Source of the DNA: a virus
Lineage: Duplodnaviria > Heunggongvirae > Uroviricota > Caudoviricetes
IMG/VR virus record: IMGVR_UViG_2526164662_000053
DNA: 27,867 bases
Reading direction: 5' to 3' (one strand)
In this document: positions 3,876 to 27,867 of the stretch, one piece after another
Numbering within the stretch: position 1 is the stretch's first letter
Layout of the letters: each line of letters starts with the position of its first letter
Made by a program: the position numbers and the translations under genes
The notes under the pieces: generated by a model
Databases searched by the model: none
Seen by the model: only the letters and a program-made list of their open reading frames with translations
Told to the model about the DNA's origin: nothing

Positions 3876-4081
3876 AACCTCACTCCCAGCGGACGACGGC
3901 GGCGGCTTGTTGTCCCCAGCACTGACTCCGCATCATTGATCGCCCGGTTAAGATCATCCAGAGAGGCCACCGTATATTCAATTCTTCGTCCATCTTTCTG
4001 GACAGACACCACCCGTTTACCGGTTAATAAATCAAGGCGCGCCTGACGCAGCGCCTGCAGTTCAGCGACGTAACCATTCAC
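3872..4081 (-). CDS. W: head-tail connector protein (lambda gpW-like)
   Basis: C-terminal 69 codons of ORF 3872..4609 (…LTGKRVVSVQKDGRRIEYTVASLDDL…) match recalled gpW; only in-frame start is GTG at 4081; no stop separates it from the terminase frame. Confidence 0.55.
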   Translation of the reverse strand: MNGYVAELQALRQARLDLLTGKRVVSVQKDGRRIEYTVASLDDLNRAINDAESVLGTTSRRRRPLGVRL

Positions 4082-5990
4082 TCCTCCGGACAGCTTCGCT
4101 GCCAGTTCTTTCAGGGTTGGCCGGGTCGTCTCTTCTTCCCGGGATTTTGCCAGTACAGCCAGATCAAGCTGCCAGCGTTGCACGGACACACGTAATGCCG
4201 CGTAGGCATACACCAGGCAGTCCAGCGCTTCGTTACGCCGCTTTTTGTTATCCCACAGCAGACGCATCTTTCCTTTTTCCCACTTCTCCACCAGCTCTTC
4301 CGCCACCAGTTGCTGCGCCTCTGTCTGCGAAAAAATCTCCGGATCATCAGGAAAACGGATGGCATACGACGTGGCTTCATCCGCAGGCGAGGGATCGGCT
4401 TTCATACGGGCATAGAGAATTTCTTTTGCGGTGTCCGTTCCCACTTCACACAGATACACGCCCCGCTGATTGCGGGTTTTTGCATGGTGATCACCGGCTT
4501 GCCATAGACAGATGCGCCTTTTACCGGCAGCACCCGGGAAAAAACCGTGTTTTTTTGTATCTCTGATAAACAATTTCACCATCGATCCCCCCGGTGTCCC
4601 AGCAGACACGGGAAATAGTCATTTCGGTGCCATCCGCATGGCGGTATTTTTTGTTGATCGCCGCATCCACACGTAACAGCGTCTCTTCCTCATCAGGACG
4701 CCCCATAATGATGATTTTATCCACCAGAAAGGCTTCCTCTCCCGGAGCCCATCCCCAGACATACATCTCAAAACGGTTTCGCTGCGAGTCAATGCCCGCC
4801 GTCAGATAAACCACCCGGGCAGGCACCGCCGCCGTGTAACGCACCACCTTATCCATCAGTACCTGGTGATCGAGTTTTTCGCCCACGGCCTCTTCCCAGG
4901 TCTCGCCCAGCGTGGTGTTCACAAAGGTTTTCAGGCCGTTGGGATCTTTCAGTGCATCCAGCCAGTCATAGACAATCTGTACCCAGGTGGTGAACGGACT
5001 GTACGCCGTCCAGATATGGAACGTGATGGAGCGCGGCGGCGGAATTTCATCACCCCGGGCGCTGAAAAACGTCAGACCGTCACGGGTCCACATGCCCGTG
5101 TTTTCACAGATCCACCGCCCGTTGCTCTGGTCCAGTTCAGACTGATGGATCACGCAGCCATGATGTTCACAGAGGTAGAAAACACTTTCAGGGCTGTCCT
5201 TCTCCCATTTAAGCCCAAAAGGCGTGGACTCATCGCCAAATTTCAGATACTGCTCCTCCCCACAGTGCGGGCAGGGCACATAAAAACGCATAAAATGCGC
5301 CGACTCGTTAGCGGCTTTTTCGATCTGGCAGGTGCCTTTGATTTTAGGCGTCGAGCCGCGAATGGATTTTGGCCACACCGACCCCTCAATACGCTTATCC
5401 CCCAGCAGGGTTGGCGAGCCCTCTTTTTCGACATCCGGCTCGAACGAGGAAAGTTCGTCATAGCAGACCACGTCCACGGATTTTTCACGGTAGTTTTTGG
5501 CGGCAGCGCCGCCCAGGCACCAGAAACCGACGCCCGATGAAAAGCGTTTCAGCGTGAGAGTATTGTCACGATGTTTACGCCCCAGCCATGGGGAAAGGTC
5601 TTTCAGGCATGGCACGTTCCGAATCGTCGCCTCCACGTGAGACTTCATAAAATCTTCAGCGGCAGAATCCGTGGGCTGAAAAAGCAGACTGTTTCGGGAT
5701 TTATGCTCAATAAAATACCCGACCACCCCCAGCAACATCTTTGTATAGCCAACACGGGCAGATTTAATCAGATTAACAGTGCGGATCTGATCATTCCCCA
5801 TGCTGTTCATGATGGCGATCTGGAATGGCAGCGTTTTCCATTCGCCCTCACCATATGAAGATTCTTTAGGCAGATAATAATTTTGATCAGCCCATTCAAC
5901 TGGCGTCACCGGCAATGCCCTTATCAGGGGCTGTAATGCAGTTGTGACAGCGCTCATCATATTATTCAGTTGTTGCTCTGATATATTCAT
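4082..5990 (-). pseudogene. A: terminase large subunit (lambda gpA-like), frameshifted
   Basis: ATG at 5990 (MNISEQQ…); strong gpA similarity through WDTGGIDGEIVYQRYKK, then three frame changes at runs 4549-4555 (T7), 4532-4537 (CCCGGG) and 4477-4481 (T5); C-terminal similarity resumes and runs into W. Confidence 0.75.
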
Positions 5991-14023: not shown

Positions 14024-14100
14024 TGGCGCGCTGTACTGGATTCGAACCAGTGACCGATTGCTTAGAAGGCAATTGCTCTGTCCGGCTGAGCTAACAACGC
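14024..14100 (-). tRNA. tRNA-Arg (anticodon UCU)
   Basis: Reverse complement folds as cloverleaf: 7-bp acceptor stem GCGTTGT/ACAGCGC, anticodon loop CTTCTAA, T-arm GGTTCGAATCC, 3' CCA. Confidence 0.9.
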
Positions 14101-14201: not shown

Positions 14202-14277
14202 TGGTGGCCCTTGCTGGATTTGAACCAGCGACCTGGCGATTATGAGTCGCTCGCTCTCACCACTGAGCTAAAGGGCC
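14202..14277 (-). tRNA. tRNA with CAU anticodon, ileX/ileZ-like (tRNA-Ile2; reads as Met by anticodon)
   Basis: Perfect 7-bp acceptor stem GGCCCTT/AAGGGCC, anticodon loop CTCATAA, T-arm GGTTCAAATCC, CCA end; close to recalled E. coli ileX. Confidence 0.9.
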
Positions 14278-22039: not shown

Positions 22040-22621
22040 TTATCTTCTTTTCAGTTCCTTGGGAAGAAAAGCATCTATTTCTTCTTCAGAAAATGTTAAA
22101 TCTTCTTTGTTTTTTAATGCGTCCTGTGCTTTTTTATAAGCTTCAAATGTTGTACTAGGAGAGCCTGAATACACTGAATGTAAACTCTCGAGTAACGAAT
22201 CCCGCTCTGACTGCAATTGCTCGATTGGTTTTTCACCCATTGCTAAGTCTGTAAGCAATGATAAATACTTTTCTCGGATTAACCAGATCTCATTTGCAGC
22301 CTGCTTATGTTTTTGCGCCAACTCACCAAGGTCATAATCTTTGGTATAAGCGTTAAGAATGAGAAGCAGTGTTGAAACAACAATCCCAACCCCCGTGCCT
22401 ACTTCACCCGCGCCGAAAAAAGTTGCTAGAAAGCCTCCAGTAGTTAAGGCGGAGAGAATTATTTGCCAAAACTTTATAGAAGATAGTCGAGATAGGAGAA
22501 TGTCTGAGCATTTTTCATGCGTCTTATGTGAGTAAACGACCCGACCATAACACTCTCTGATCTGCCCTTCTAAAACCCTTCTAGATTCAGGTGTATCCTT
22601 AGTCTGGAAATGTTGATCCAT
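22040..22621 (-). CDS. SLATT-like two-helix membrane protein (candidate effector)
   Basis: 193 aa from ATG at 22621 (GGGAGA SD); two adjacent hydrophobic helices FWQIILSALTTGGFLATFF and GVGIVVSTLLLILNAY flanked by charged regions; start lies 23 nt inside the upstream gene. Confidence 0.6.
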   Translation of the reverse strand: MDQHFQTKDTPESRRVLEGQIRECYGRVVYSHKTHEKCSDILLSRLSSIKFWQIILSALTTGGFLATFFGAGEVGTGVGIVVSTLLLILNAYTKDYDLGELAQKHKQAANEIWLIREKYLSLLTDLAMGEKPIEQLQSERDSLLESLHSVYSGSPSTTFEAYKKAQDALKNKEDLTFSEEEIDAFLPKELKRR

Positions 22622-23480
22622 AAATCTCCCGCCATTTTTGCTTAGCCGACCATTCGCGTTTTGGGGTCGCCATTTCATGCTCTATAGCTTCGAGTGAAAT
22701 GTTATAGCACCGTTTTGCTTTATATTGGAAAAGCCCTTTACCATAGACATACTGACCACTTCCTGGCGCTTTCCAATACTCCTTACTCGTATCTTGATCA
22801 GCCATCCATTTGAAGAAATCACGACTCATGAAATCGTAGTAAAGATACGACTTATCTCTATGCGCCCAATTTTCAATGAATTGATACGCAAGCGTATCAA
22901 TGAGTAAACCACTTATAGGTACATCCCATTTACGCTTCCAAGCTCTTGCCATTCTACAAAGTTGCACCAAATTGTTATTGGTAATGTTATTTCTTAACCT
23001 CATTGCAGAAATTTCTGGCTTTGGATTTGTAATCCTCCAACGGCCACCACCGTTCGCATCAGGAAATGTGTAACTATCACTAACATTGAGGAAAGCTGGA
23101 ACGACTTCAAATGTAATTCCATCATTGAACGGTACAAGGATCACTTGACCGTCACCTCTAATACTAGTGGTAGCATAGGTTTTTTCAATAGATCTCTTAA
23201 CCGCTTGAAGCAATGCTGACTGCCCATTTCCTAAGTAGCTATTGTATTTTTGATACTCGGAATATGGTAGCTGAAAAATCATATCCAGATCGCTCAAGCC
23301 TTGCGTAGCTGTGTTCCGACCATATGATCCAACGTAGAGACTATGAGAAGTATCAGAACTGCTATCCCAAAAATCCGTATTTAAACGCTTCGTTATATTC
23401 CTATATCTAGTTGAAATTGTTCCACCATCTTTTACAGTAAGATTGGAGCAAAATCCGCAAAACCACTCAGCTAAACCCAT
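22599..23480 (-). CDS. SMODS / CD-NTase-like nucleotidyltransferase (candidate signal synthase)
   Basis: 293 aa from ATG at 23480 (AAGGA SD); motif VGSYGRNTATQGLSDLDMIF (GS…DxD) and downstream acidic motif NDGITFEVVPA. Confidence 0.65.
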   Translation of the reverse strand: MGLAEWFCGFCSNLTVKDGGTISTRYRNITKRLNTDFWDSSSDTSHSLYVGSYGRNTATQGLSDLDMIFQLPYSEYQKYNSYLGNGQSALLQAVKRSIEKTYATTSIRGDGQVILVPFNDGITFEVVPAFLNVSDSYTFPDANGGGRWRITNPKPEISAMRLRNNITNNNLVQLCRMARAWKRKWDVPISGLLIDTLAYQFIENWAHRDKSYLYYDFMSRDFFKWMADQDTSKEYWKAPGSGQYVYGKGLFQYKAKRCYNISLEAIEHEMATPKREWSAKQKWREIYGSTFPD

Positions 23481-23775
23481 GCTCAATTCCTTTTCTAAAA
23501 TCTAATGAAAAATTCAAGGGCGCATGTTCCATGCATCATTGATAACTTTTTTCAGTCAGCTAGAGCAACATAATTGATACTAACTAGCTGTTTCTTCAAG
23601 TGAGTAACCTACTTTAGCATCAAGGTATTATACCTACCAAGCATGGGGAGAAACCACCACTTAAGCCATTGAAGTATATAGAGCAGATTTTGTTGAAAAA
23701 GCACTGTTTGTCTATACATATGAATATGTGCTTTTAACCAGCAATAGCGCGGCTCTCAGCGTTTTACAAGCAGTG

Positions 23776-23822
23776 TCATGGGGTGTCGGGGATCGGAAGT
23801 TCAAATCCTCTCGTGCGACCCA
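23776..23822 (+). other. 3' fragment of a tRNA-Pro-like gene (anticodon loop to 3' end); attachment-site remnant
   Basis: tcatggggtgtcggggatcggaagttcaaatcctctcgtgcgaccca resembles the 3' part of recalled E. coli proM; no matching 5' half upstream. Confidence 0.6.
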
Positions 23823-23834
23823 AAAGATTATATA

Positions 23835-23860
23835 AACCAGCCTGTTATTGCTGGTTTTTT
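23835..23860 (+). terminator. intrinsic terminator after the tRNA-Pro fragment
   Basis: accagc-ctgttatt-gctggt followed by TTTTTT. Confidence 0.5.
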
Positions 23861-24049
23861 ATGCCTACCTTCCTGGTAGGGAAGCTATGGGGAATTACTG
23901 GGGAATCCCCCCCCTTTACCTGCTCCCATTAAACTAACATAGCACGATGTAAGCAACTTCCGCTTCTGGCACAAAGCGGACAACCACGCTAGCTCTACCC
24001 TGTGCCACAAAATGTCAATTTACATCTGAACTAATGCACTTTAATCTCG

Positions 24050-24472
24050 TCACTTCAAAAAATACCGAACATCCCCCTGATAAAACGACAATATCCACTG
24101 CATAACTTCGCTTTTACGACACTCAGTACAAATTATATTATGACGCCTGTCGTAACGACGTATTTCTCCATCAGGTAATGACCAGATAAGGTCCGGATCA
24201 ACCGCAGATGGTTTCTTCAGCTTTGCCCTTGAGAGCTTTTTACGGGCATTTTGCCAGTCCTTACGCGCCTGTTCAGACGGGAATAACCCGTAACCAGAGT
24301 TGTATACATCGCCACTGGCAACCAGCTCTCTGGCCAGAACGCTCATCAGATATCTTGTTGCCCCAGTTTTAGCTTCCAGTTGTCGTAACGTCTCGCGCCC
24401 ACTCTGGCGTACGAGTTCAAGAACCTGCCCTTTAATTTTTTCCCGCTCTTCTTGTGTAAAAACTTTTGCCAC
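24050..24472 (-). CDS. hypothetical protein with HTH-like segment (lambda P position)
   Basis: 140 aa ORF downstream of the O-like gene; function not recognised. Confidence 0.4.
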   Translation of the reverse strand: MAKVFTQEEREKIKGQVLELVRQSGRETLRQLEAKTGATRYLMSVLARELVASGDVYNSGYGLFPSEQARKDWQNARKKLSRAKLKKPSAVDPDLIWSLPDGEIRRYDRRHNIICTECRKSEVMQWILSFYQGDVRYFLK

Positions 24473-24512
24473 AAGCCCTCCTGAAAATTACCTCATGACC
24501 AGAAATACACAC

Positions 24513-25589
24513 TTACCCCCTGAAGCCCGGTGGAATTTCGGTATCCGGTTCAGAAATATGATTCACACAACGCTGGTTGTTCGTACCGCTTACCGGGAGC
24601 AACCAGGGGTTTTCAAAATTCCGGTCCGGTCCAAAAAACGTCGTCGCTCGCTGAACAAATTCCGTTCCCGTTTTCCCGGTAGCCGCCAGGTATCTTGCGT
24701 AACGCCTCACACCATCCAGCATGGTCTCTGGTGGCACCCCCTCGCGTAATCTGGCCTTCCAGGCACTGAAAGCGGATTTCTTCGGGTTTGCCCCAGCACG
24801 CAACGGGTATTCCCGCCAGACCTGTTCGAACACATCCGGATAATCTACTCGCCCCACAGGCTGCCCGGTGTTTTCCGGGACTACCCGATCGGCTTCCCGC
24901 TGAATGGCGGAATCGGCTTCAGGCTGCTGCAGTTGGTGTGATTGCTCCGGCCTTGCGGTCATCACCTGCTGCACAGCGCCCGAATCGGCTTTCAGCGCAT
25001 ACGCTGAATCGGCTTCCGGTGTCGTGCCTGCTGGCTGACCAGGATTGACGGTCTGAACATCCCCTGCCTGGTTCGTGGCGTTTTTTACGCCATGGACCAT
25101 AGTGTTTTGATCTTCTTGATCTGTATCTTTATCTGTATCTTTATCTGTCGTGACTCGTCGTGACATGTGCGTGACATTTCGTGACGCGCCGTGACAATCG
25201 CCATTTTGTTCCCGCTTTCTTTCCCTCTCTCGCTGCGCCCTCTTGCGCTCTGCAGGAGATTTTGCGGTTTGCGAAATATTGCCGTTGTCCTCTTTAAGCA
25301 CCTGGCGTTTTTCCCATCCAGTGATTAAATCACCATCAAGTACCCGCCCCTGCATCGTCTGCAAAATTGAATCAATTACCTCTTCTGTCACGTCGAGCGC
25401 ACTTGCCAAATCTTCTGTCGTGACATCAATGTGACCTCGCGTGACATTTCGTGACGCGCTCACCAGGAGGTGGATATACACTGCCATCACTGTTGCAATT
25501 GGCTGCCCTGACACCCTGGCAATTGTTCGCCACTTAGGGTCATTTGGCATGTCATGCCATAATCTGAGCCAAGCGTTAGCCATACTCAC
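24513..25589 (-). CDS. putative replication initiation protein (O-like)
   Basis: 358 aa; position after cro and a cII-position gene; iteron-like repeats inside its coding sequence as in lambda O; protein similarity itself is weak. Confidence 0.5.
   Translation of the reverse strand: MSMANAWLRLWHDMPNDPKWRTIARVSGQPIATVMAVYIHLLVSASRNVTRGHIDVTTEDLASALDVTEEVIDSILQTMQGRVLDGDLITGWEKRQVLKEDNGNISQTAKSPAERKRAQRERERKREQNGDCHGASRNVTHMSRRVTTDKDTDKDTDQEDQNTMVHGVKNATNQAGDVQTVNPGQPAGTTPEADSAYALKADSGAVQQVMTARPEQSHQLQQPEADSAIQREADRVVPENTGQPVGRVDYPDVFEQVWREYPLRAGANPKKSAFSAWKARLREGVPPETMLDGVRRYARYLAATGKTGTEFVQRATTFFGPDRNFENPWLLPVSGTNNQRCVNHISEPDTEIPPGFRG
25145..25200. repeat. iteron cluster 1: five direct CGTGAC(A) repeats at 10-11 bp spacing, next to an AT-rich repeat
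   Basis: CGTGAC at 25149, 25159, 25170, 25180, 25190; preceded by atctgtatctttatctgtatcttt (about 25120-25145). Confidence 0.55.
25386..25456. repeat. iteron cluster 2: four direct (C/T)GTGAC repeats plus one inverted copy
   Basis: GTGAC at about 25419, 25431, 25440, 25450 at 10-11 bp spacing; inverted gtcacg at 25387-25392. Confidence 0.5.
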
Positions 25590-25654
25590 CTCTTCTGATA
25601 CCGAATCTTTTTACTCACGAGTTGCCGGAAGCGATTCGATATGGCTATTGTCAG

Positions 25655-26080
25655 TCAATGTACTGCCACAGCATTTCCTGCCGGGCCACCACGGTTCATC
25701 TGATTGAAACCGGCGATTGCCACTGCGACAAAATCATCAGCGTCTCTCACCAGTCGCTCCCGCGTCTCCACCAGCTCCCGAAAATAAGCTGAACTGTGGC
25801 TGCGCATTCTGGCCACCAGCAAAGGTGGCATTGCCTTTTCGATCGCTGGTAACAACGCCTGAATTTTTTCAACTGCATCAGGGGTATCTTTCTCTATCCA
25901 GCGGAAAATTTTCTGGGTATTGCGAGCCAGGGCTTCCGGATGGCTGTCGTCGTACAGTTCAGGAAACGTCATACCCAACTCAAAATAAGCCTGGGTTATT
26001 CCAGCTGCCGGAACTTTTTCGCCATCAGGACGCGCCCAGGCATTCATCGCCATGCGGATGTGTTCATGCTTGATTTTCAT
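25655..26080 (-). CDS. hypothetical protein at the cII position (possibly YdaT-like)
   Basis: 141 aa from ATG at 26080 with G-rich SD; overlaps the cro 3' end by 17 nt; assignment by position and size only. Confidence 0.4.
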   Translation of the reverse strand: MKIKHEHIRMAMNAWARPDGEKVPAAGITQAYFELGMTFPELYDDSHPEALARNTQKIFRWIEKDTPDAVEKIQALLPAIEKAMPPLLVARMRSHSSAYFRELVETRERLVRDADDFVAVAIAGFNQMNRGGPAGNAVAVH

Positions 26081-26306
26081 GAATCCCCCCTTGGTTAGAA
26101 GGCGGATTATGATCAGAACCGGGAATGACAACCGTCGGTATGTGTAACTCATATTTGAGCGCCCCGGCAGTGACTGCCTGAATTAGCAACGCCCATTTCC
26201 ACGGAACCTCTTCCCCCCACATGCTGACTGTGGTTTTTGACGTTCCTAGAGCTGCGGCTGTTTTAACAACTCCGCCAAAATAGCCTAATACTTCTGATTT
26301 TTTCAT
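26064..26306 (-). CDS. cro: Cro-like HTH repressor
   Basis: 80 aa from ATG at 26306 (GGAG 8 nt upstream); HTH segment GGVVKTAAALGTSKTTVSMW; divergent from cI. Confidence 0.7.
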   Translation of the reverse strand: MKKSEVLGYFGGVVKTAAALGTSKTTVSMWGEEVPWKWALLIQAVTAGALKYELHIPTVVIPGSDHNPPSNQGGIHENQA

Positions 26307-26335
26307 GAGTCGCTCCATAAAACTGAACGCCAAAA

Positions 26336-26397
26336 GTTTAATAATCAAAACCAAAGAAAGTCAAGAAACAAAACCATCTGTGTTTTAAAATCAAAAC
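26336..26397. promoter_or_regulatory. cI/cro operator region with two related palindromes
   Basis: GTTTAATAATCAAAAC (26336-26351) and GTTTTAAAATCAAAAC (26382-26397), each GTTT…AAAC symmetric; the second ends at the cI ATG. Confidence 0.5.
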
Positions 26398-27036
26398 ATG
26401 AGCAAGCAAACAATATCTGAACGCATAACCCAACGTATGCATGCGCTAAACCTGAAAGGCAAAGACCTTGTCAATGCCACTGGCGCATCAAAAGGCTCCG
26501 TAAGTCAATGGATGAACGGTGGAGGAGCGCCGTCCTCGCGTTACATAAGTTCACTGGCAAAAATATTGAAAGTAAACGAAAATTGGCTTCTTAATGGAGG
26601 AGAGTTAAATACAGGTGATTCGCTTGATCTATCTTTACCGCCGATAAAAACGGTTCCGCTACTATCACTTCAGCAGGCAGCAAGCTGGAGTGATTATATG
26701 AAAAATTCCTCAATAACCTCTTGTGTGCAGCTTGTCGGAGAAATCCCGGCCAATACCTTTGCAGTTGTTCTAGAGAGTGACAGTATGTCAACATCTGGTG
26801 GGGGAGTTTCCATCCCAAATGGTTCAACAGTTTTTGTTGATCCCAATCGAACCGTACAACCAGGAAATATTGTCCTTGCCTTACCCAAAGGGACCACAAC
26901 ACCTGTCATTCGTAAACTGGAGATAGAAGGGCCGGATATTCTTTTAGTCCCCACGAATCCTCGCTACCCTTCAATTATGCTGGATGATCTATCTTGCATA
27001 TTGGGCGTATGCTTTAAAATTCAACAAGATATTTAA
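26398..27036 (+). CDS. cI: CI-type repressor (HTH plus LexA/S24-like autocleavage domain)
   Basis: 212 aa; N-terminal HTH LKGKDLVNATGASKGSVSQWMNG; C-terminal S24-peptidase-like region; divergent from cro. Confidence 0.85.
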   Translation: MSKQTISERITQRMHALNLKGKDLVNATGASKGSVSQWMNGGGAPSSRYISSLAKILKVNENWLLNGGELNTGDSLDLSLPPIKTVPLLSLQQAASWSDYMKNSSITSCVQLVGEIPANTFAVVLESDSMSTSGGGVSIPNGSTVFVDPNRTVQPGNIVLALPKGTTTPVIRKLEIEGPDILLVPTNPRYPSIMLDDLSCILGVCFKIQQDI

Positions 27037-27328
27037 CCGACCTCATCTATTTGATTAACTGTATGCCATCGTGGTGATGGCTTAACAGCTGCCTGCTTAA
27101 AATGTTTTGATAAAAAAACATTGACCTGAAAAGTTCATTTTTCTAAACTTCATTCATTCCCTCTCCCCACCCCACAGAATGCAGGGCAATACTTCGAGTT
27201 ACCAGGCAGTGGTCAGGGGTTAAGTAGCCAGCCCGAGGCGTAAGAACATGACGGCAGGGTTCAACTTTAATAACTATGCAGCAGGTTTTTGTTCCGCTAC
27301 CCCGGCGTTAAGGGGAAATGAGGTCAGC

Positions 27329-27481
27329 ATGGATACTATCGATCTTGGCAACAGCGAATCTCTGGTATGTGGCGTGTTCCCCAACCAGGACGGTACGTTC
27401 ACCGCGATGACGTATACCAAAAGCAAAACGTTTAAAACTGAAGCTGGCGCGCGTCGCTGGTTAACCAGAAACACTGACTGA
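27329..27481 (+). CDS. small protein (possibly YdfA-like)
   Basis: 50 aa from ATG at 27329 with GAGG SD; stop overlaps the next gene's ATG (TGATG); family call from memory. Confidence 0.4.
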   Translation: MDTIDLGNSESLVCGVFPNQDGTFTAMTYTKSKTFKTEAGARRWLTRNTD

Positions 27482-27867
27482 TGAGGTTGACGATGGAATT
27501 TAAAGATTTACCAGTACCATTCCAGGAAATGGCATCGAATGTGGTTCGCTCTCAACTGGCGACTCTTGACCTGAGTACCGTAGAAAAAGAAACCATCGAT
27601 ACTATATCCGGTAACGTGCGTCGTGCCTTTATCGGTCTGTACGAAGAGAAGCAGCTCTCTGATAACCAGGATTTACATGAAAAATACTTCATGGAATTAA
27701 TGGACATCATTAATAAAGGATTTGGCTTGTTAATGAAAAAGAAAGGGATTCGAATAGCTCCCCTTGAAAATCATTTTACAGCGAGCAGTATTAATTCCTG
27801 TGATTTAAAGCATCACACATCCGATGGGAAAGTTGAATCAAACAACAAAATATCAATTAATCATTAA
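27481..27867 (+). CDS. hypothetical protein
   Basis: 128 aa ORF coupled to the upstream small gene; ends with TAA at the window end. Confidence 0.4.
   Translation: MRLTMEFKDLPVPFQEMASNVVRSQLATLDLSTVEKETIDTISGNVRRAFIGLYEEKQLSDNQDLHEKYFMELMDIINKGFGLLMKKKGIRIAPLENHFTASSINSCDLKHHTSDGKVESNNKISINH

What the first reader, a model, noticed from the sequence alone, without database searches (positions are those of the whole stretch)
25090..25460. Helically phased CGTGAC iterons inside the O-like gene: probable replication origin
Five direct CGTGAC(A) copies at 10-11 bp spacing (25149-25195) lie next to an AT-rich repeat (atctgtatcttt twice); a second cluster of four copies plus an inverted copy lies about 250 bp away (25387-25455). 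Iterons embedded in the initiator gene next to an AT-rich unwinding element is the lambda ori arrangement; two separated clusters is less usual.
Basis: partly seen in the sequence, partly recalled or inferred. Interest (0 to 1): 0.5.

Follow-up and report, generated by a model that had tools for sequence, protein, structure and literature searches.

The report
Two-cluster iteron origin in prophage initiator gene
Inside the replication-initiator gene of an E. coli lambdoid prophage lie two arrays of a 6-base repeat, spaced one DNA turn apart, next to an AT-rich stretch; comparison with about 50 relatives shows they are selected as DNA, so this is very probably the phage's replication origin, of a widespread type I found no description of.

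Summary
CGTGAC occurs five times at 10-11 bp spacing (25149-25195), beside a 29% GC repeat tract (25100-25148). A second array lies about 260 bp away: three exact copies, one TGTGAC and one inverted copy (25387-25455). All sit inside a 358-aa replication-initiator gene (24513-25589, minus strand) of an E. coli lambdoid prophage.

The repeats are selected as DNA, not as protein. They fall in all three codon phases. Across 21 homologues from hosts of 34-69% GC, synonymous sites inside the hexamers are frozen (0.22 versus 1.64 bits, p=1.5e-6). The two-array layout and a (GATAAA)n tract recur in 43 of about 53 related loci. More distant relatives keep the layout with other hexamers (GTAACG, GAACGC), and a basic helix of the initiator changes with them. 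The module recombines exactly at the AT-rich tract and pairs with different helicase-recruiting partners.

The best reading is a replication origin: initiator-binding iterons plus an unwinding element. The array next to the AT-rich tract is the core and the other is auxiliary. The logic is lambda-like and SPP1-like, but the initiator is not a lambda O homologue and the iterons are short, direct and bipartite. No binding or replication was tested. It is a new variant of a known kind, of moderate interest.

The parts
24513..25589 (-). Replication initiator gene (358 aa): N-terminal winged-helix origin-binding domain, a disordered linker, and a C-terminal domain that ends in a DnaT-like tail.
   Evidence: ORF listed. 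It matches phrog_3729 'replication initiation protein' over its full length (E=1.6e-257), and the C-terminal half matches phrog_1701 'DnaD-like helicase loader'. No Pfam family matches at E<0.01. It is 97-98% identical to genes of the phages Tritos, Evi and vB_EcoS-640R1 and is full length in about 1646 complete E. coli genomes.
25149..25195 (-). Iteron cluster B, next to the unwinding element. Five copies of GTCACG (CGTGAC on the + strand) at 10/11/10/10 bp. Proposed core initiator-binding array.
   Evidence: Coordinates. The copies encode VT, MSR, VT, ASR and CHG, in three codon phases. The hexamers stay invariant while the spacers differ in L001. An array at the equivalent position is present in 43 related loci.
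25387..25455 (-). Iteron cluster A, inside the winged-helix coding region. Direct copies at 25450, 25440, 25430 (GTCACA variant) and 25419, plus one inverted copy at 25387-25392. Proposed auxiliary array.
   Evidence: Coordinates. It encodes the end of a helix and a surface loop, aa 45-57. Codons here are frozen: GTC 21/21, ACG 21/21, GGT 21/21, TCA 20/21. L001 and L004 carry a 21-bp insertion that adds two copies. It is absent in some lineages that keep cluster B.
25100..25148 (.). AT-rich tract with strong strand asymmetry, (ATCTGTATCTTT)n on the + strand and (AAAGATACAGAT)n on the coding strand. It encodes the DKDTDKDTD linker. Proposed DNA unwinding element.
   Evidence: 29% GC, the lowest in the gene, with a period-12 repeat. 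The repeat number varies: +36 bp in L002. A homologous CAGATAAAGATAAAGAT tract follows cluster B in nearly all relatives, whatever the host GC (mean 33% against 55% for the gene). GAT and AAA codons are strongly preferred there.
25196..25386 (-). Spacer of about 190 bp between the arrays. It encodes the helix-turn-helix, the wing and the basic helix (aa 112-128) of the origin-binding domain.
   Evidence: Structure model. The start-to-start distance between arrays is 258-260 bp in the commonest arrangement (about a third of the loci) and up to about 350 bp in others. Residues that track the iteron class lie at aa 103-119.
25069..25099 (.). Inverted repeat with 13-bp arms and a 5-nt loop, flanking the AT-rich tract on the side away from the iterons.
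   Evidence: (pair I4). It lies in the half of the gene that is not shared with L001, so its conservation with the origin module is not established.
24516..24587 (-). C-terminal 24 residues, QRCVNHISEPDTEIPPGFRG, resembling the C-terminal tail of the host primosomal protein DnaT. Proposed link to host DnaB-DnaC loading.
   Evidence: NCBIfam DnaT equivalog, aa 335-358 against profile positions 156-179 of 179, E=0.0015 and far below the family cut-off. PDB DnaT chains 6aep_A, 2ru8_A and 9zbt_D match at E=0.02-0.07 for the single protein and 0.002-0.009 for the profile.

Best explanation
The region is the replication origin of this lambdoid prophage, embedded in its own initiator gene.

1. Early rightward-type transcription (Cro-like, then cII-like, then initiator; leftward in window coordinates) produces the initiator.
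2. Its N-terminal winged-helix domain, together with the adjacent basic helix, binds the GTCACG hexamers. Because the copies are direct and about 10.3 bp apart, the bound subunits line up head to tail on one face of the DNA.
3. The five-copy array at 25149-25195 next to the AT-rich tract is the core. The array 260 bp upstream (25387-25455) is an auxiliary site that is probably drawn into the same complex by initiator oligomerisation, looping or wrapping the DNA in between.
4. The strain melts the 29% GC purine/pyrimidine-asymmetric tract at 25100-25148.
5. The C-terminal part of the initiator, with its DnaT-like tail, then brings in the host DnaB-DnaC helicase. No phage loader is encoded in this module.

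Shown here: the anatomy, DNA-level selection on the hexamers, family-wide conservation, differences in hexamer sequence between initiator subfamilies, and the modular exchange of the C-terminal partner. Inferred: binding, looping, melting and the route of helicase loading.
For: Gene identity and context. The gene matches phrog_3729 'replication initiation protein' (E=1.6e-257). It sits in the order cI (S24 repressor) / P22-Cro-like / YdaT-cII-like / initiator / DUF977 Ren-like.

Selection acts on DNA, not protein.
- The hexamer sits in all three codon phases and encodes VT, (A/M)SR, CHG or GHI; the inverted copy encodes DVT.
- In 21 homologues from genomes of 34-69% GC, third positions of four-fold codons at conserved residues carry 0.22 bits of entropy inside hexamers (n=10) and 1.64 bits outside (n=31); Mann-Whitney p=1.5e-6.
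- In L001, hexamers are invariant while spacers have diverged.

Conservation. The two-array layout (about +116 to +165 and +385 to +435 from the start codon, 10/11-bp steps) recurs in Escherichia, Serratia, Rahnella, Pseudomonas, Bordetella, Acidovorax, Chromobacterium, Aquitalea, Castellaniella and others. It also occurs in a P. aeruginosa 50.9-kb circular phage-like element.

Specificity classes. More distant relatives keep the layout with GTAACG or GAACGC units. Residues not encoded by the iterons track the class: a 9-aa insertion at aa 103-111 and positions 112, 117 and 119 of the basic helix.

Unwinding element. A (GATAAA)n tract follows the last cluster-B copy in nearly all loci, at 33% GC against 55% for the gene. 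GAT and AAA codons are enforced there even in 65-68% GC genes such as L018 and L019.

Modularity. Homology with L001 breaks exactly at the AT-rich tract. The same N-terminal domain with its arrays is found in three arrangements:
- fused to a domain with a DnaT-like tail (the window);
- fused to a DnaT DNA-binding domain (PF17948) and followed by a lambda-P gene (L001); L017 likewise has a lambda-P gene downstream;
- as a stand-alone 160-aa protein followed by a DnaB-like helicase gene.

Copy number varies in helically sensible, in-frame steps: +21 bp adds two iterons, and +36 bp adds three AT-rich units.

Against: There is no experimental evidence of binding, melting or origin activity for any member of this family, and I found no paper describing these iterons.
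- Part of the link between hexamer class and protein sequence is circular, because the arrays encode the loop and the linker. The remaining class-specific residues are confounded with phylogeny.
- The predicted recognition helix (aa 69-79) is acidic rather than basic, and DnaD N-terminal domains are oligomerisation modules. The DNA-contacting surface is therefore uncertain.
- The DnaT-tail match covers only 24 residues with weak E-values.
- Some relatives have no arrays (L046-L048, L051-L053) or only one or two iteron-like copies (L029, L031, L045).
- Helical phasing between the two clusters is only weakly conserved (resultant 0.45, with non-independent data), so looping is not demonstrated.
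Confidence: 0.8

Rival explanations
1. The arrays are initiator-binding sites, but one or both serve control rather than initiation. Cluster A inside the coding region could act as an autoregulatory roadblock, a titration site or a handcuffing site, as the control iterons of plasmids do. Only cluster B plus the AT-rich tract would then fire as the origin.
For: Cluster A is dispensable in evolution. L038, L054, L029, L031 and L045 keep iteron copies next to the unwinding element but have none in the loop region. Cluster A lies 260 bp from the AT-rich tract and early in the coding sequence. Phase between the clusters is only weakly conserved.
Against: This is not exclusive with the main explanation. 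Cluster A is retained at the same position, orientation and spacing in more than 40 loci across two proteobacterial classes, and it gains copies in step with helical phase (+21 bp). That pattern suits an architectural role in one complex equally well.
Confidence: 0.25
2. The hexamer arrays are binding sites for some other protein, not the initiator. Candidates are a host winged-helix regulator that reads one-turn-phased direct repeats (PhoB/OmpR style; the Pho-box half-site CTGTCAT/C resembles TGTCAC) or another phage protein.
For: From general knowledge, PhoB-type regulators bind 7-bp direct repeats at 11-bp phasing. Three window copies read TGTCAC.
Against: The hexamer differs between initiator subfamilies (GTCACG, GTAACG, GAACGC), while hosts within one class range from Escherichia to Bordetella and Pseudomonas. 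The spacers are GC-rich, not the A/T-rich Pho-box spacer. No copy lies in the cI-cro operator region. The arrays always travel with the N-terminal domain across mosaic junctions and different partner genes.
Confidence: 0.05
3. The repeats have no cis function. They would be a by-product of a repeated peptide motif (SRNVT ... SRxVT) or of slippage-prone tandem DNA.
For: The protein does contain ASRNVT twice (aa 45-50 and 135-140), and the VT dipeptide recurs.
Against: The same hexamer is read in three frames and gives different residues. Synonymous positions inside it are frozen across hosts of 34-69% GC, while those outside are near saturation. A true in-frame peptide repeat in the same gene (EADS; GAATCGGCTTC at spacings of 72 and 24 bp) shows what protein-level repetition looks like.
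Confidence: 0.02

Closest known systems
Bacteriophage lambda ori within gene O, and the Stx-phage variants
   Same: The origin lies inside the initiator gene. Iterons are followed, in the direction of transcription, by an AT-rich unwinding tract (PMC7466680). The gene sits downstream of cro/cII-type genes in the early operon. Iteron number varies between relatives and adds in-frame residues to the initiator: lambda has 4 and Stx phages 6 (PMC7466680), and here +21 bp adds 2 copies. Mosaic exchange separates the origin-specific N-terminal half from the partner-specific C-terminal half. From memory, lambda also has a palindrome beyond its AT-rich tract; here one lies at 25069-25099.
   Different: The initiator is not a detectable lambda O homologue: no Pfam Phage_rep_O hit. 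Lambda iterons are about 19 bp with internal dyad symmetry and bind O dimers (general knowledge). Here the conserved core is 6-7 bp, direct, at one-turn spacing, and split into two arrays about 260 bp apart. No P gene is present in this module.
Bacillus phage SPP1 oriL within gene 38 (replisome organizer gp38)
   Same: oriL lies within the initiator gene and consists of direct repeats plus an AT-rich unwinding element bound by gp38 (PMC6316719). The window protein has a weak, full-length but sub-threshold match to Pfam Phage_rep_org_N (E=0.13, 12.7 bits) and a DnaD-NTD-like fold. Some database records name it 'phage replisome organizer'.
   Different: Family membership is not established by sequence, since the match is below the Pfam cut-off. 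SPP1 uses a dedicated loader and helicase (gp39, gp40) and has a second origin elsewhere in the genome. I could not compare repeat sequence or spacing.
SaPI (staphylococcal pathogenicity island) origins
   Same: Short penta- or hexanucleotide iterons are read by a winged-helix domain, arranged in two sets, with an AT-rich region that melts (PMC9371898).
   Different: SaPI iterons flank the AT-rich region on both sides, point in opposite directions and lie downstream of rep. The SaPI initiator is itself a self-loading helicase. Here both arrays lie on one side, in the same orientation, inside the gene, and the initiator has no helicase domain.
DopC, the domesticated O-like protein of Cellvibrionales and Oceanospirillales (Brezellec et al. 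2017)
   Same: The architecture is an N-terminal helix-turn-helix plus a C-terminal DnaT motif (PDB 2ru8), encoded next to a lambda-P-like gene (PMC5509034). This resembles the window protein (DnaT-like tail) and its relative L001 (DnaT DNA-binding domain followed by a P gene); L017 also has a P gene downstream.
   Different: The authors found no iterons in dopC and concluded that it is no longer an origin. Homology of DopC to this family was not tested here. The Gilvimarinus loci I retrieved (L011, L017) carry iterons, and L017 lies in a prophage context with YdaT-like, P and NinB genes.

Membership tests
Lambda-type origin (ori inside gene O) | The initiator is a homologue of lambda O (Pfam Phage_rep_O N-terminal domain). 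| tested here: not met
   No Pfam family matches at E<0.01. At E<10 the only hits are HTH_Crp_2, PhyR_sigma2 and Phage_rep_org_N, all below their cut-offs.
Lambda-type origin (ori inside gene O) | The origin is embedded in the initiator gene, with iterons followed by an AT-rich tract in the direction of transcription. | tested here: met
   In gene orientation the arrays start at +134 to +165 and +394 to +435, and the 29% GC tract follows at +441 to +489.
Lambda-type origin (ori inside gene O) | Iterons are about 18-19 bp with internal inverted symmetry and form a single cluster of 4-6. | tested here: not met
   The conserved core is 6-7 bp, direct, with a 10-11 bp period and variable spacers. 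There are two clusters 260 bp apart.
Lambda-type origin (ori inside gene O) | A P-type helicase loader gene lies immediately downstream. | tested here: not met
   The downstream gene is DUF977/Ren-like, followed by SMODS and SLATT genes. Relatives L001 and L017 do have a lambda-P gene.
PHROG 3729 replication initiation proteins | Full-length profile match. | tested here: met
   E=1.6e-257; aa 3-358 against profile positions 1-356 of 356.
Phage replisome organizer, N-terminal domain (Pfam PF09681; SPP1 gp38 type) | The Pfam profile matches above the gathering score. | tested here: inconclusive
   12.7 bits against a cut-off of 23.3 (E=0.13), but the match spans aa 7-124 against profile positions 1-118 of 121. 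The fold is a DnaD-NTD-like winged helix.
Phage replisome organizer, N-terminal domain (Pfam PF09681; SPP1 gp38 type) | The initiator binds direct repeats next to an unwinding element inside its own gene. | not testable with these tools
   The sequence anatomy fits. Binding would need EMSA or footprinting.
Iteron-type replication origin (general) | The repeats are conserved as DNA, independently of coding needs. | tested here: met
   Third-position entropy is 0.22 bits inside against 1.64 bits outside, p=1.5e-6. The hexamer occupies three codon phases.
Iteron-type replication origin (general) | The repeat sequence changes together with the cognate initiator subfamily. | tested here: met
   GTCACG, GTAACG and GAACGC classes occur at the same positions. 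Class-specific residues lie outside the iteron-encoded segments. Caveat: this is confounded with phylogeny.
Iteron-type replication origin (general) | The region supports autonomous, initiator-dependent replication. | not testable with these tools
   This needs a cloning and replication assay. The only hint is a 50.9-kb circular P. aeruginosa element, deposited as a plasmid, that carries the module.
DnaT (primosomal protein I) | Full-length match to the DnaT equivalog. | tested here: not met
   18.2 bits against a cut-off of 201; only the last 24 residues align. The resemblance is to the C-terminal tail only.

The most novel reading that the evidence does not exclude
This would be the first recognised example of a very widespread, uncharacterised class of phage origin.
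- Two arrays of one-turn-phased hexamers are read by a DnaD-NTD-like winged helix plus a basic helix.
- At least three specificity classes exist (GTCACG, GTAACG, GAACGC).
- A sequence-conserved polypurine (GATAAA)n unwinding element doubles as the (Asp-Lys)n linker of the initiator.
- In the E. coli form, the initiator carries a DnaT-like tail and so borrows the host replication-restart primosome to load DnaB, which removes the need for a phage-encoded loader.
Probability: 0.35. Interest if true: 0.6.

Novelty: new variant of a known kind. Interest (0 to 1): 0.45.

Why it matters
The module is common. It is full length in about 1646 of 5426 complete E. coli genomes, and the N-terminal domain has 871 homologues across many proteobacteria. 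PGAP nevertheless often labels the gene 'hypothetical protein'.

A defined origin would give three things:
- a simple sequence rule for annotating the origins of many prophages;
- a set of natural specificity variants for studying how a small winged-helix initiator reads one-turn-phased short repeats;
- a tractable case of overlapping constraint, in which origin DNA dictates the residues of a protein loop and linker.

If the DnaT-like tail does recruit the host restart machinery, that would be a loader-free way for a lambdoid phage to capture DnaB. This origin type also lies in prophages of pathogenic E. coli, whose induction and copy number affect the expression of the genes they carry.

Tried and rejected
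- Host-factor sites. There is no DnaA box in the origin region: the only two window matches to TTWTNCACA lie elsewhere and are at chance level. There is no IHF consensus between 25050 and 25600. One oriC-13-mer-like match with two mismatches at 25118 is at chance level (15 found, 9.9 expected).
- Known RNA. No Rfam family matches in 23000-27867.
- An 'ACTACG iteron class' (L046, L053) was rejected. The repeats encode a YVYYV / GIY-YIG-like motif in an unrelated inserted domain.
- Loop as specificity determinant. The idea that the iteron-encoded loop (aa 45-57) itself sets DNA specificity is weakened. L038 has a divergent loop but keeps GAACGC arrays next to the unwinding element. L029, L031 and L045 keep the GAACGC-type basic helix with different loops.
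- Strict helical phasing between the clusters. The resultant is only 0.45 on non-independent loci, so I treat it as suggestive.
- Sequence search of solved structures gave nothing for the N-terminal domain and only the DnaT tail.
- Promoter and terminator scans around the gene were at chance level.
- Literature searches for GTCACG or CGTGAC iterons, and for replisome-organizer origins in prophages, found no description. The Weigel & Seitz 2006 review of phage replication modules is not held in the library, so I could not check whether it predicts this origin.
Full report
**The observation.** The window sequence and an exact search confirm five CGTGAC copies on the + strand at 25149, 25159, 25170, 25180 and 25190, with steps of 10/11/10/10 bp. 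A second group has copies at 25419, 25440 and 25450, a one-mismatch copy (TGTGAC) at 25430, and one inverted copy at 25387-25392. The whole window holds 20 copies against 10.6 expected, and 0 of 100 shuffles reach 20. Nine of the 20 lie within 307 bp, where 0.12 are expected (Poisson P about 1e-14). Tandem Repeats Finder independently reports a period-10 array at 25147-25196 and a period-12 array at 25114-25148. The tract 25100-25148 is 29% GC, the lowest in a gene that otherwise runs at 55-60%. It is strongly T-rich on the + strand. The two clusters also share longer matches, a 16-mer and an 11-mer.

**Context.** Everything lies inside the ORF 24513-25589 on the minus strand (358 aa).
- The ORF matches PHROG 3729 'replication initiation protein' end to end (E=1.6e-257). 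Its C-terminal half matches 'DnaD-like helicase loader' and 'primosomal protein' PHROGs.
- Its neighbours form a lambdoid early region: an S24 cI-type repressor (26398-27036, +), then, divergently on the minus strand, a P22-Cro-like gene, a YdaT/cII-like gene, the initiator, and a DUF977/Ren-like gene.
- The DNA is 97-98% identical to the isolated phages Tritos, Evi and vB_EcoS-640R1. It is 99.9% identical to a prophage of E. coli 2013C-4991, where the gene is annotated 'hypothetical protein'.
- About 1646 of 5426 complete E. coli genomes carry the full-length module.

**DNA-level or protein-level repeat?** In gene orientation the motif is GTCACG. Its copies start at gene offsets 134, 144, 154, 165, 394, 404, 414, 425 and 435, so they fall in all three codon phases. 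They encode ASR, VT, GHI, VT, CHG, ASR, VT, MSR and VT; the inverted copy encodes DVT. A peptide repeat cannot produce that pattern. The same gene holds a true in-frame repeat (EADS; GAATCGGCTTC at spacings of 72 and 24 bp), which serves as an internal contrast.

**Comparison within E. coli.**
- A prophage of strain 09-02E (L001) shares only the N-terminal half. Homology starts exactly at the AT-rich repeat.
- All five cluster-B hexamers are invariant there, although the spacers between them have diverged.
- Cluster A has a 21-bp insertion that adds two more copies. Twenty-one bp is two helical turns and seven codons.
- Strain GCU-H1 (L002) has 36 extra bp, which is three more 12-bp AT-rich units.

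**Family-wide comparison.** The N-terminal 160 residues have 871 homologues at E<=0.001, typically 58-70% identical, in Enterobacterales, Pseudomonas, Bordetella, Achromobacter, Chromobacterium and others. In their alignment the invariant residues include those encoded by the hexamers: S46, V49, T50, R51, G52, S136 and T147, among others. A genome scan returned 53 loci from 53 contigs.
- In about 25 loci, with GC from 0.34 to 0.69, GTCACG occurs at about +116 to +165 and +385 to +435 in 10/11-bp steps. Often there is an inverted copy at about +180 to +197, and almost no copies in the 5-kb flanks.
- A codon alignment of 21 of them shows frozen codons at hexamer positions: GTC 21/21, ACG 21/21, GGT 21/21, CAC 20/21, TCA 20/21. 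Equally conserved residues elsewhere use all synonymous codons; for example, P15 is CCA 7, CCC 7, CCG 5, CCT 2, and T22 is ACG 7, ACC 6, ACA 4, ACT 4.
- Third-position entropy at four-fold sites is 0.22 bits inside hexamers and 1.64 bits outside (Mann-Whitney p=1.5e-6).

**Specificity classes.** More distant relatives keep the same two positions and the same 10-bp period with other units. GTAACG/GAAACG occurs in six loci, including Pantoea, Enterobacter, Marinobacter and Sphingomonas. GAACGC occurs in twelve loci, including Janthinobacterium, Variovorax, Rhodoferax and acidobacterial MAGs. A GAACGCC variant occurs in one alphaproteobacterial MAG. The units share an ACG(C) core.

Part of this link between hexamer and protein is circular, because the arrays encode a loop and a linker of the protein. 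Residues not encoded by the arrays also separate the classes, however: a 9-residue insertion (aa 103-111) and positions 112, 117 and 119 of a basic helix. That helix reads AERKRxQRERE in the GTCACG class, AERAKAWRE in the GAACGC class and AxRVKxF/YRE in the GTAACG class.

An apparent 'ACTACG class' proved to be an artefact of a GIY-YIG-like coding motif. Several relatives have no arrays (L046-L048, L051-L053) or only one or two iteron-like copies (L029, L031, L045).

**The unwinding element.** In nearly all of the 43 loci that have both arrays, the last cluster-B copy is followed at once by (A/C)(C/T)AGATAAAGATAAAGAT. This is a polypurine, AT-rich tract that encodes an (Asp-Lys)n linker. Its mean GC over 45 bp is 0.33, against 0.55 for the genes. 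In this tract GAT and AAA are used almost exclusively (for example GAT 19 of 19 Asp codons at D149, and AAA 15 to AAG 1 at K150), whereas Asp and Lys elsewhere in the same genes favour GAC and AAG. The tract is therefore also constrained as DNA. Lineages that have lost cluster A keep cluster B and this tract (L038, L054 and, in reduced form, L029, L031 and L045). I therefore take cluster B plus the tract as the core and cluster A as auxiliary.

**The protein.**
- An AlphaFold2 model built on 59 sequences gives a confident winged helix (aa 18-90, pLDDT 82-97), a basic helix at 112-128, and disorder from 131 to 160.
- Cluster A encodes the end of helix 31-47 and the loop 48-57. Cluster B and the AT-rich tract encode the disordered linker. 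The DNA constraints thus sit in the structurally most permissive parts of the protein.
- Pfam gives no significant hit. Phage_rep_org_N aligns end to end but below threshold (E=0.13). No lambda O family matches.
- The last 24 residues (QRCVNHISEPDTEIPPGFRG) resemble the C-terminal tail of the host primosomal protein DnaT. DnaT acts with PriA and PriB to load DnaB-DnaC at restart sites (PMC13220808).

**Modularity.** The N-terminal domain with its arrays is found in three arrangements:
- fused to a domain with the DnaT-like tail and no loader gene (the window);
- fused to a DnaT DNA-binding domain (PF17948) and followed by a lambda-P gene (L001); L017 likewise has a lambda-P gene downstream;
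- as a stand-alone 160-aa protein that ends just after the AT-rich tract and is followed by a DnaB-like helicase gene, in a 50.9-kb circular P. aeruginosa element deposited as a plasmid. That element has four plus four GTCACG copies and the GATAAAGATACAG tract.

An origin-recognition cassette exchanged among different helicase-delivery partners is what is known for lambdoid replication modules.

**Mechanism.** The initiator is made from the early operon. It binds the hexamers as a head-to-tail array on one face of the helix, since the mean step is about 10.3 bp. Oligomerisation is plausible for a DnaD-NTD-like domain, and it would join the two arrays and strain the adjacent 29% GC tract until it melts. 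The C-terminal part then recruits host DnaB-DnaC. The anatomy, selection, conservation, specificity classes and modularity are shown. Binding, looping, melting and the loading route are inferred. No DnaA box, IHF site or significant 13-mer is present, and no Rfam family matches.

**Comparison with known systems.**
- Lambda. The logic matches lambda ori, with iterons followed by an AT-rich tract inside the initiator gene (PMC7466680). The initiator family, the iteron type (short, direct, one-turn phased) and the bipartite layout differ, and P is absent here.
- SPP1 oriL. This origin has direct repeats plus an unwinding element inside gene 38, bound by the replisome organizer (PMC6316719). It is probably the nearest relative in protein terms, but membership is not established.
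- SaPI origins. They are a precedent for hexanucleotide iterons read by a winged-helix domain in two sets (PMC9371898), with a different geometry and initiator.
- DopC. It shares the HTH plus DnaT-C architecture but was reported to lack iterons (PMC5509034).

Full-text searches found no description of GTCACG or CGTGAC iterons or of this origin. The 2006 review of phage replication modules could not be consulted.

**Verdict.** The feature is best described as a new variant of a known kind, an intragenic iteron origin. It is common, conserved and so far apparently undescribed. It is not surprising in principle that a lambdoid prophage has an origin in its initiator gene, so the interest is moderate.

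Noticed in passing
window 22040-23486 (-): Overlapping genes for a SMODS nucleotidyltransferase (295 aa, PF18144, E=2e-50) and a SLATT_4 two-transmembrane effector (212 aa, PF18186, E=6e-74) lie about 560 bp downstream of the DUF977 gene that follows the initiator. This looks like a defence-type cargo pair.
   Followed up: no
window 14024-14100 and 14202-14277 (-): ARAGORN finds tRNA-Arg (anticodon tct) and tRNA-Met (anticodon cat) genes. The second is annotated tRNA-Ile in the near-identical E. coli record. Both lie just downstream of the Q-like antiterminator gene in the direction of transcription, as in Stx-type prophages.
   Followed up: no
window 24907-25019: Three copies of G(C/A)xGAATCGGCTTC at spacings of 72 and 24 bp encode an in-frame (E/K)ADS peptide repeat in the C-terminal half of the initiator. 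This is a protein-level repeat and contrasts with the out-of-frame hexamers.
   Followed up: partly
window 25069-25099: An inverted repeat with 13-bp arms and a 5-nt loop lies immediately beyond the AT-rich tract. From memory, a palindrome occupies the same position in lambda ori. It lies in the mosaic half not shared with L001, so its link to the origin is unproven.
   Followed up: partly
L057 (CP137943.1) 4001-4483: A 50.9-kb circular P. aeruginosa element deposited as a plasmid carries a stand-alone 160-aa version of the origin-binding domain with four plus four GTCACG copies. It is followed by a DnaB-like helicase gene. The initiator gene is not in the distributed gene table.
   Followed up: partly
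L047, L048, L051, L052 (one beta-proteobacterial MAG, bin-090): Four contigs of a single MAG each carry a homologue of the N-terminal domain. L047 and L048 have no hexamer arrays and a Pro/Val-rich linker instead of the Asp-Lys linker. L051 and L052 are cut at about residue 100. These may be degenerate copies, or they may use a different origin.
   Followed up: no
L046, L053 (Serratia MAG, Pantoea sp.): In these relatives the winged-helix domain is followed by an inserted segment with a GIY-YIG-like motif (YVYYV...VGIS.NPW.R) in place of the basic helix, iterons and linker.
   Followed up: no
L011, L017 (Gilvimarinus, Cellvibrionales): Cellvibrionales loci of this family carry intact GTCACG arrays and the (GATAAA)-type tract. 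L017 is followed by a lambda-P gene in a prophage-like context. This bears on the published statement that the O-like dopC genes of this order lack iterons; dopC itself was not examined.
   Followed up: partly
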